From Mytilus edulis (Eukaryota): DNA of 64,000 nucleotides. The notes beneath the pieces were generated by a model, which was not told where the DNA came from, did no database searches, and saw only the letters and a program-made list of their open reading frames with translations. The stretch is taken from positions 55,924,001 through 55,988,000 of the forward strand of contig NC_092357.1 in the NCBI RefSeq assembly GCF_963676685.1. The letters are read 5' to 3'. A program made the translations under genes and the position numbers. Every line of letters starts with the position of its first letter. Position 1 is the stretch's first letter. Below, one piece after another: positions 581-1,115 of the stretch.

Positions 581-937
581 ATGGCACATGCTATATCAGA
601 AACAACTGTTTACCACCATACTAGTATAAAAGGAGCAGAAGGAATACTTGCTTCTGGTTACATTAAGGCATCAATTGCCGCAAACGGTGACGCCGTGTTC
701 GGTGACGGAGCTTATGTGTCAAGGAAGGGTCAAGAAACACCAATAGATGAAATTGCGGAAAACATCTTTGATGGCCCGAAGTCATTTTGGGAGAGTCAAA
801 GATATAAAACTGCTGTTGTTTTTGAAATAAAACTCCCGAGAACCGACGTCATAGATGCAAATGTACCCGGGCGAGATGTTAGTCGAATCGCAGGTGATAT
901 CTCTTGTAGCCGTATAGTTAGGACACATTATCGCTAA
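581..937 (+). CDS. Small ADP-ribosyltransferase-fold protein, Tox-ART-HYD1-like (118 aa), single coding exon
   Basis: Motifs VYHHTS..GAEGILASGYIKAS...DAVFGDGAYVS...IAENIFDG...VVFEI match the H-Y-[D/E] HYD1 ART pattern as I recall it (YHYT..G..GI..SG.I..S...FG.GVY). A TTTCAG acceptor lies at 549-554 just before the ATG and AATAAA at 988-993. The ORF is more GC-rich than its flanks. Confidence 0.8.
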   Translation: MAHAISETTVYHHTSIKGAEGILASGYIKASIAANGDAVFGDGAYVSRKGQETPIDEIAENIFDGPKSFWESQRYKTAVVFEIKLPRTDVIDANVPGRDVSRIAGDISCSRIVRTHYR

Positions 938-1115
938 AAGTAGGAAGCGAACATACATACTTATAACATTGCTTCATAATGTTAATGAATAAAACTTTTA
1001 AAATACTACGTTAGACATCCCTCTTGTGTAATGAACGTGTGTAGCTAACTTAATATGTAAACATGGTAACAAGCAATGTTATGTTTAAAAAAATGTACAT
1101 TAGATTGCAACATTT

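What the first reader, a model, noticed from the sequence alone, without database searches (positions are those of the whole stretch)
581..993. Stand-alone bacterial-toxin-like ADP-ribosyltransferase (HYD1 type) as an animal gene
Seen: a 118-aa ORF with YHHT / FGDGAY / VFEI motifs, a splice acceptor 26 nt before the ATG, and a poly(A) signal ~50 nt after the stop. It therefore looks like an expressed nuclear gene among host repeats rather than contamination. Known: Tox-ART-HYD1 domains are described mainly as polymorphic toxin tips with an H-Y-D/E triad. Inference: a minimal cytosolic (no signal peptide) ART effector, possibly for innate immunity or nucleic-acid modification, and possibly of horizontal origin.
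Basis: partly seen in the sequence, partly recalled or inferred. Interest (0 to 1): 0.75.

Follow-up and report, generated by a model that had tools for sequence, protein, structure and literature searches.

The report
Mussel gene resembling bacterial ADP-ribosylating toxin
A mussel-type animal carries a real, spliced gene, one of three neighbouring copies, for a tiny protein predicted to fold like the ADP-ribose-transferring tips of bacterial antibacterial toxins; the family also occurs in copepods and likely serves in defence, but this copy is the most altered one and may be decaying.

Summary
The ORF (581-937, 118 aa), its motifs and the acceptor 26 nt before the ATG are real. Contigs of two studies splice a GT..AG intron onto that acceptor; two more 5' exons were mapped. 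The poly(A) claim is weak: contigs run about 360 nt past it. The model (pLDDT 89) has an ADP-ribosyltransferase fold. Pfam Tox-ART-HYD1 is hit just under its cut-off (22.2 of 25 bits). Two paralogs lie within 28 kb, beside a HEPN-nSTAND3-ankyrin gene. Relatives are named in Mytilus, Dreissena and calanoid copepods (membrane-tailed), forming one group far from 21 bacterial Rhs tips; transfer from bacteria is likely but its direction was not shown. Against function of this copy: it departs most from the family (7 of 23 conserved columns), and 3 of 8 runs laid carry an in-frame 13-residue gap removing strand 5. Best reading: an animal sub-family of HYD1-like, likely nucleic-acid-modifying defence enzymes under birth-and-death. 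No activity or induction shown.

The parts
531..554 (+). Pyrimidine tract and AG splice acceptor. Three donors feed it, all upstream of the window: window -1594, -630 and -37180 (G000:C14:55922406, 55923370, 55886820)
   Evidence: Joint in X1 and X3; loose ends of X10 and X20, one contig each, mapped to GT donors
555..1350 (+). Last exon: 26-nt 5' UTR with an in-frame stop at 566-568, the whole ORF, and a 3' UTR reaching at least about 1350
   Evidence: Contigs of X1, X3, X5 cover window 555 to 1348-1356 without gaps; frame open from 569
581..937 (+). ORF, 118-aa HYD1-like ADP-ribosyltransferase domain (P0001)
614..616 (+). H12, strand 1, first triad residue
   Evidence: H in 25 of 26 family rows, one row truncated; strand 7-14
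713..715 (+). Y45, strand 2, second triad residue
   Evidence: Y in 26 of 26 rows; strand 43-47
872..877 (+). R98-D99 before strand 5; D99 is the inferred third (acidic) residue
   Evidence: R 25 of 26, D 24 of 26 plus one E and one N; strand 101-103; position like YarT E92 as described in PMC11125620; geometry not measured
878..916 (+). 39 nt missing in a second haplotype (V100-I112, in frame), between 5-nt direct repeats; not GT..AG
   Evidence: X10, X11, X20; repeat checked; present in X1, X3, X5, X15
988..993 (+). AATAAA; not shown to be the poly(A) signal in use

Best explanation
This is a spliced gene of a mussel-type bivalve for a 118-residue stand-alone protein with a predicted ADP-ribosyltransferase fold, which likely uses NAD+ to put single ADP-ribose groups on RNA or DNA as a cytosolic defence enzyme, in a family likely taken over long ago from bacterial HYD1 toxin tips. 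Shown: the gene, its splicing, two tandem paralogs, H12 and Y45, relatives in bivalves and copepods. Predicted: the fold, and D99 as third residue. Inferred: NAD+ binding by H12/Y45; a nucleic-acid target, from the two studied HYD1 relatives (Tre23 on 23S rRNA; YarT, reversed by a guanine-ADPr NADAR); removal by the host's NADAR or macro domains in place of an immunity protein; a defence role, from local duplication, fast divergence and the NLR-like neighbour. This copy is the fastest-changing of the three and is broken in some haplotypes, as expected under birth-and-death.
For: Model pLDDT 89.4, pTM 0.80. The top structural rows are ART-fold proteins: CC0527, TreTu, TreX, 6b, Tpt1, Scabin, PARPs; best Foldseek E 1.3e-3, best VIA Z 8.6 (rmsd 3.8, 102 aligned). 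PF15633 is hit by 17 of 18 family members at E<=0.1. Atlas first hit 0.97: 56 members, 100% Eukaryota, commonest Mollusca, 71% PF15633. Family profile against an Rhs tip: hhalign probability 98.4 over 53 columns. A profile of 85 bacterial tips scores 25 of 26 family rows at E<0.01. 82 of those 85 tips end their ORF. Tre23 modifies 23S rRNA and spares rabbit reticulocyte translation (PMC8661411). YarT is a stand-alone 114-aa HYD1-clade toxin rescued by its YbiA/NADAR (PMC11125620). The genome has 32 NADAR matches, 25 over the cut-off. A HEPN_DZIP3-nSTAND3-ankyrin gene borders the cluster. Paralogs are 46-47% identical and differ in charge, pI 5.3 to 10.5.
Against: P0001 is under the Pfam cut-off (22.2 of 25 bits). 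No Foldseek match reached E<=0.001 and Z near 8 is middling. It departs at 7 of 23 conserved columns, the most of 26 rows, and is the only row lacking P51 and N62; longest bivalve branch, 0.76. 3 of the 8 runs laid lack V100-I112 (the three were picked for low word share). Bacterial tips differ in the second half: G, N or H before strand 5 in 77 of 85, an acid in 4 of 85, so substrate need not carry over. No signal peptide, so reaching a bacterial ribosome is unexplained. No NADAR lies in the cluster; the nearest match is about 0.9 Mb away and has stops. Only three copies were found: a small expansion. The tree is a quick tree without outgroup. No induction data.
Confidence: 0.45

Rival explanations
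1. The family is active but this copy is a transcribed, decaying duplicate with little or no activity.
For: 7 of 23 departures including P51 and N62; long branch; a haplotype without strand 5 in three studies and two organism labels, with no full-length contig in those runs; neighbouring tandem genes are mostly broken.
Against: The ORF is whole in the genome and in 4 of 4 runs; both haplotypes stay in frame; H12, Y45, R98 and D99 are kept; three 5' exons splice to it; the model is confident.
Confidence: 0.3
2. It is a protein-modifying mono-ART, or an NAD+-cleaving signal maker, wired to host immune signalling such as the neighbouring HEPN-STAND-ankyrin receptor.
For: The H-Y-acid layout is that of protein-modifying ARTDs; the weak sequence hits in the PDB are PARP10 and PARP15 (E 0.05-0.7); copepod members carry a C-terminal hydrophobic helix, which suits signalling at membranes; one distal exon lies in an intron of the STAND gene, on the other strand.
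Against: The two studied HYD1 relatives point to nucleic acids; neighbourhood alone shows no coupling; no targeting domain.
Confidence: 0.2
3. On origin only: an old eukaryotic or early-animal ART lineage inherited vertically and lost often, sister to rather than derived from bacterial toxin tips.
For: All 32 non-tip rows fall on one side of a long branch (about 1.97, SH-aLRT 100); present in both molluscs and arthropods; GC3 0.30 like host genes; no close relative in prokaryote genomes, phages or plasmids with animal-type queries.
Against: HYD1 is widespread in bacteria (185 confirmed stretches) and patchy in animals; eukaryotes are reported to have recruited toxin ARTs more than three times (PMC3417536).
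Confidence: 0.25
4. Bacterial contamination or a chance ORF.
For: None beyond the likeness to bacterial proteins.
Against: Chromosome-scale contig, spliceosomal introns, paralogs with the same acceptor layout 14 and 24 nt before their ATG, named homologs in Mytilus and Dreissena.
Confidence: 0.01

Closest known systems
Tox-ART-HYD1 (PF15633) Rhs toxin tips, e.g. Photorhabdus Tre23
   Same: Size, predicted fold, H on strand 1, Y on strand 2, D-A-x-[FY]-G-x-G-x-Y loop, conserved R before strand 5.
   Different: No Rhs or delivery domain, no linked immunity gene, spliceosomal introns; an N-N-[YW] helix motif in the family and D before strand 5, where the sampled bacterial tips have G, N or H.
YarT of myxobacteria (YarT-YbiA toxin-antitoxin, PMC11125620)
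   Same: Stand-alone, unsecreted, about 115 aa, HYD1 clade, acid on the loop next to strand 5 (as described).
   Different: Animal gene; no adjacent NADAR/YbiA; D rather than E. YarT's sequence was not compared here.
Eukaryotic Tox-ART-HYD2 and pierisin-type ARTs
   Same: Toxin-type ARTs found in eukaryotes and proposed to come by lateral transfer (PMC3482391, PMC3417536).
   Different: Other ART families; the 2012 table lists HYD1 for bacteria only.
PARP10/PARP15-type mono-ARTs
   Same: Weak likeness over strands 1-2; H-Y core.
   Different: About 70-80 residues shorter, no accessory domains, no PF00644 hit for P0001.
Domesticated amidase effectors (Dae) of ticks and other animals (recalled; paper not retrieved)
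   Same: Idea of an antibacterial toxin turned into an animal defence gene.
   Different: Other enzyme; Dae are secreted and hit the cell wall (recalled), this protein has no signal peptide.

Membership tests
Tox-ART-HYD1 (PF15633) | Score at or above the curated cut-off of 25 bits | tested here: not met
   P0001 22.2 bits, E 2.2e-4. Of 7 relatives scanned, 5 pass (P0003 25.6, P0005 29.4, P0027 38, P0028 35, P0084 37.1) and 2 do not (P0002 22.9, P0031 24.7).
Tox-ART-HYD1 (PF15633) | ART split-sheet fold | tested here: met
   Predicted model, pLDDT 89.4, six strands; top structural rows are ART-fold proteins.
Tox-ART-HYD1 (PF15633) | His on strand 1 and Tyr on strand 2 | tested here: met
   H12 and Y45; Tre23 needs the matching H8 and Y33 (PMC8661411).
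Tox-ART-HYD1 (PF15633) | Acidic third residue | tested here: inconclusive
   D99 precedes strand 5 (D in 24 of 26 rows). The D that bacterial tips conserve on strand 3 (72 of 85) aligns with K84.
Polymorphic toxin system | C-terminal tip of a secreted multidomain protein | tested here: not met
   In-frame stop at 566-568 inside the same exon; no signal peptide. Fused forms in other animals were not searched.
Polymorphic toxin system / YarT-YbiA | Adjacent immunity or NADAR antitoxin gene | tested here: not met
   No NADAR match in the cluster. The interleaved tandem family has no Pfam, NCBIfam or PADLOC hit, so an unknown partner is not excluded.
Tox-ART-HYD1 (PF15633) | NAD+-dependent ADP-ribosylation and toxicity | not testable with these tools
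   Needs assays.
PARP catalytic domain (PF00644) | Profile match and a domain of about 190-200 residues | tested here: not met
   No hit for P0001 at E<=1; 6 of 18 members hit weakly, best E 0.0014.
Tpt1/KptA and CC0527 (H-H-h clade) | His at the strand-2 position (clade as described in PMC9825190) | tested here: not met
   Tyr in 26 of 26 rows, although these folds rank high.

The most novel reading that the evidence does not exclude
Molluscs and copepods keep a domesticated bacterial HYD1 toxin family that ADP-ribosylates nucleic acid (guanine bases or bacterial-type rRNA) as an innate weapon, and it is a missing writer for the many invertebrate NADAR erasers, with soluble forms in bivalves and membrane-anchored forms in copepods.
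Probability: 0.2. Interest if true: 0.8.

Novelty: new variant of a known kind. Interest (0 to 1): 0.52.

Why it matters
The role of NADAR hydrolases in animals is called unclear in PMC11125620, and HYD1 enzymes have been studied only in bacteria in the papers I found. An expressed, intron-bearing HYD1-like family in bivalves and copepods gives small, clonable candidates for an animal RNA/DNA ADP-ribosylation defence, and a further case of a toxin ART taken up by animals. The theme itself is known (pierisin, HYD2), databases already tag some of these proteins with PF15633, and this copy may be a poor representative.

Tried and rejected
The profile search of 1.84 billion representatives never ran (queue full on all 10 tries), so the family's range, its closest bacterial relatives and any fused forms are incompletely sampled. 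All three homolog searches used 'near' lengths; the single-sequence one found nothing. PDB sequence searches gave no match under E 0.04. Animal-type queries found nothing in phages, plasmids or prokaryote genomes (18 pattern matches, 0 confirmed); viral contigs gave three short partial matches, two of them seen to lie in long proteins: rejected as donors. NCBIfam and PADLOC gave no hit for P0001. VFEI as third triad residue: rejected on strand order. The 39-nt gap as an intron: rejected, no GT..AG at any of the allowed cuts; as a reverse-transcription artefact: unlikely, because it travels with a linked 3-nt insertion and two substitutions and no full-length contig stands in those runs, but no DNA run covering it was seen (X19 stops at 796). 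A head-to-head promoter with the STAND gene: rejected, the distal exon is inside its intron. Folding the neighbouring tandem family failed (pLDDT 29.9); no fold search was run on it. Oyster-pathogen plasmid HYD1 cassettes as donor: not supported, the one kept in the tree groups with the other bacterial tips. Four runs of the same studies hold none of the words: no evidence of absence. Not in print as far as searched: 'ART-HYD1' (14 papers), 'PF15633' (2), 'Tox-ART'+'invertebrate' (2), ART+Mytilus+HYD1 (39, 30 listed), Mytilus+presence-absence+ADP-ribos (0); judged from listings, none describes an animal HYD1 family. Aravind et al. 2015 (PMC6126934), the main ART survey, is not held and may mention it. 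No supplements were read; the YarT tree (Figure S1 of PMC11125620) may bear on this.

Full report
Observation. Window 581-937 encodes a 118-residue protein, P0001. The acceptor AG at 553-554 is used. Contigs of runs X1 and X3, from two studies, join a 5' exon at window -1594 to position 555 across a 2148-nt GT..AG intron; X15, whose contigs read through the intron, lists no such joint. Loose ends of one contig each in X10 and X20 map to two more exons ending at GT donors, at window -630 and -37180. An in-frame stop at 566-568 lies in the same exon as the ATG, so no upstream exon can extend the protein through this acceptor. AATAAA at 988-993 exists, but three runs' contigs continue to 1348-1356 and the hexamer occurs 1.6 times per kb here. 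Of 24 runs listed, 17 hold half of the words or more, one of them on record as RNA; I laid 8 of the 24. All are contigs, so level and strand of expression are not known.

Host and locus. The window lies on a 71-Mb contig of a 1.37-Gb genome. The nearest named homologs are from Mytilus galloprovincialis, M. trossulus and Dreissena polymorpha, so the host is taken to be a mussel-type bivalve. Two paralogs, 46% and 47% identical, lie 16 and 28 kb upstream on the other strand, each with an AG 14 or 24 nt before its ATG. Searches with a second member and with PF15633 found no further copy, nor did a profile search of 60 kb upstream plus the window. The three genes are interleaved with eight whole or broken copies of an unnamed family that was found only in this cluster. 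A HEPN_DZIP3-nSTAND3-ankyrin gene borders the cluster on the left and HEPN_DZIP3 exons lie at window 57.0-58.2 kb.

What the protein is. Pfam Tox-ART-HYD1 matches residues 10-54 at E 2.2e-4, 22.2 bits against a cut-off of 25; 17 of 18 aligned relatives hit it at E<=0.1. The Atlas's first hit (0.97) is a 56-member eukaryotic cluster, commonest Mollusca, 71% PF15633; the next are bacterial HYD1 clusters. The AlphaFold model has pLDDT 89.4, with strands at 7-14, 43-47, 79-86, 90-92, 101-103 and 112-117. No Foldseek match reached E<=0.001, but the top rows are ART folds: CC0527, TreTu, 6b, TreX, PARPs, Tpt1; VIA gives 6b Z 8.6 (rmsd 3.8, 102 aligned) and CC0527 and Tpt1 Z 8.0. These Z values are middling one by one; their agreement with the sequence evidence is what counts. 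ART triads sit on strands 1, 2 and 5 (PMC9825190, passages). That gives H12 (25 of 26 rows), Y45 (26 of 26) and D99 (24 of 26). In 85 bacterial tips the residue before strand 5 is G, N or H in 77 and acidic in 4, while a D on strand 3 is kept in 72; the register around R98-D99 has a one-residue ambiguity. D99 matches the described place of E92 in YarT (PMC11125620, sections 2.2 and Discussion read). I could not measure distances.

Range and origin. Profile searches returned 16 and 21 proteins. One cluster has members named Calanus glacialis, C. sinicus and Neocalanus flemingeri; the three copepod-type proteins scanned have a hydrophobic 19-mer near residue 125, which the seven bivalve-type ones lack. 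Metagenome contigs L016-L018 have low coding density and an apparent intron donor inside the ORF, so further animal-like hosts exist; most members are unnamed. One metagenome hit, L020, is the tip of a 1436-residue Rhs protein followed by DUF6881; it led to 185 confirmed stretches in prokaryote genomes, 80 kept. A quick tree of 53 rows (32 family rows; 21 tips kept of 85 after thinning) puts the tips and the family on either side of one branch of about 1.97 with SH-aLRT 100, and the 14 bivalve-type rows together at 98. The careful tree did not finish, there is no outgroup and no AU test, only three of the 14 bivalve rows carry a species name, six rows are of unknown origin, and the tips were collected by likeness to one sequence. 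So common descent with bacterial HYD1 is supported; a donor and the direction are not. GC3 (0.30) is like host genes: any transfer is old. The 2012 survey lists HYD1 for bacteria only and HYD2 also for eukaryotes (PMC3482391, passages).

Signs of decay. P0001 departs at 7 of 23 columns that are at least 80% conserved in the others, the most of 26 rows; 8 rows have none. It alone lacks P51 and N62 and has the longest bivalve branch. In X10, X11 and X20 (three studies, two organism labels; chosen for their low word share) the only contigs carry a 39-nt in-frame gap at 878-916 between 5-nt direct repeats, with a linked 3-nt insertion after 675 and changes at 679-680. This removes V100-I112, strand 5. 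X1, X3, X5 and X15 are full length; X19 does not cover the place. A genomic deletion haplotype is the likeliest reading, not checked in DNA.

Mechanism. Inferred: H12 and Y45 hold NAD+, D99 and R98 assist transfer of one ADP-ribose. Tre23 modifies 23S rRNA and leaves rabbit reticulocyte translation intact (PMC8661411, passages), which would let an animal carry such an enzyme without an immunity protein. YarT toxicity is reversed by a guanine-ADPr NADAR, and this genome has 32 NADAR matches, none in the cluster; a sponge NADAR is active on modified cytidine (PMC12945103, abstract). I therefore favour a nucleic-acid-modifying defence enzyme (0.45), with decay of this copy (0.3) and protein or signalling roles (0.2) as rivals. 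How a protein without a signal peptide would reach bacterial ribosomes is unexplained; cytosolic invaders, viral RNA or the cell's own machinery are the simpler targets.

Novelty. Toxin ARTs entering eukaryotes is an established theme (PMC3417536, passages; PMC5512222, PMC9503650, PMC10789625 and PMC12522546, passages, none naming an animal HYD1 in what I saw). My searches showed no paper on this family; the main 2015 ART survey could not be read. The scan's notes hold nothing on this DNA. Verdict: a new animal variant of a known kind, works like HYD1, not filed as a strict member; interest 0.52.

Noticed in passing
window 11368-12177, 19968-21084, 36310-37208, 41937-42890, 47570-48178 (all -); L004:3156-3743, L005:9389-9487, L006:6139-6838 (-): Tandem family of unnamed ~310-aa proteins, eight places, mostly broken, one whole frame (41937-42869); found only in this cluster and interleaved with the three ART genes; no Pfam, NCBIfam or PADLOC hit; fold failed.
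   Followed up: partly
L007:4874-5098, L008:9517-9813 and 2186-5314 (-): HEPN_DZIP3 + nSTAND3 NTPase + ankyrin gene, NLR-like, next to the ART cluster; the ART gene's distal 5' exon lies in its intron on the other strand.
   Followed up: partly
window 57039-58159 (-): Two exons of a second HEPN_DZIP3 gene at the other end of the cluster.
   Followed up: partly
L003:1420-1845 (-), L002:1486-1866 (-): Paralog P0003 is very basic (pI 10.5) with a lysine/arginine tail like a nuclear localisation signal (by eye); P0002 is acidic (pI 5.3).
   Followed up: no
G000:C1:120.27-120.39 Mb; C3:52919968; C2:96138134: Tandem cluster of NADAR genes; two other NADAR matches lie in open frames of 2307 and 1377 aa, perhaps mobile elements.
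   Followed up: no
proteins P0016-P0026, P0033, P0034, P0080-P0084: Copepod-type members end in a hydrophobic helix and a short charged tail, suggesting tail-anchoring; several clusters are large (up to 109 members).
   Followed up: partly
L016:2456-2680, L017:605-826, L018:1581-1832, L021:4001-4132: Animal-like metagenome contigs with family members; L016 and L017 show an apparent intron donor in mid-ORF.
   Followed up: partly
L023:3010-3637, L024:835-2135: Plasmids of Aliiroseovarius crassostreae carry HYD1 cassettes within Rhs toxin arrays; no special closeness to the mussel proteins.
   Followed up: partly
window 32229-34904 (-): LINE-type endonuclease/reverse transcriptase frame with stops, recognised by eye.
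   Followed up: no
L004:287-2053 (+); L009:19-303 (+): Transposase-like frames between the ART genes (by eye, no Pfam hit); a RhoGEF exon further left.
   Followed up: no
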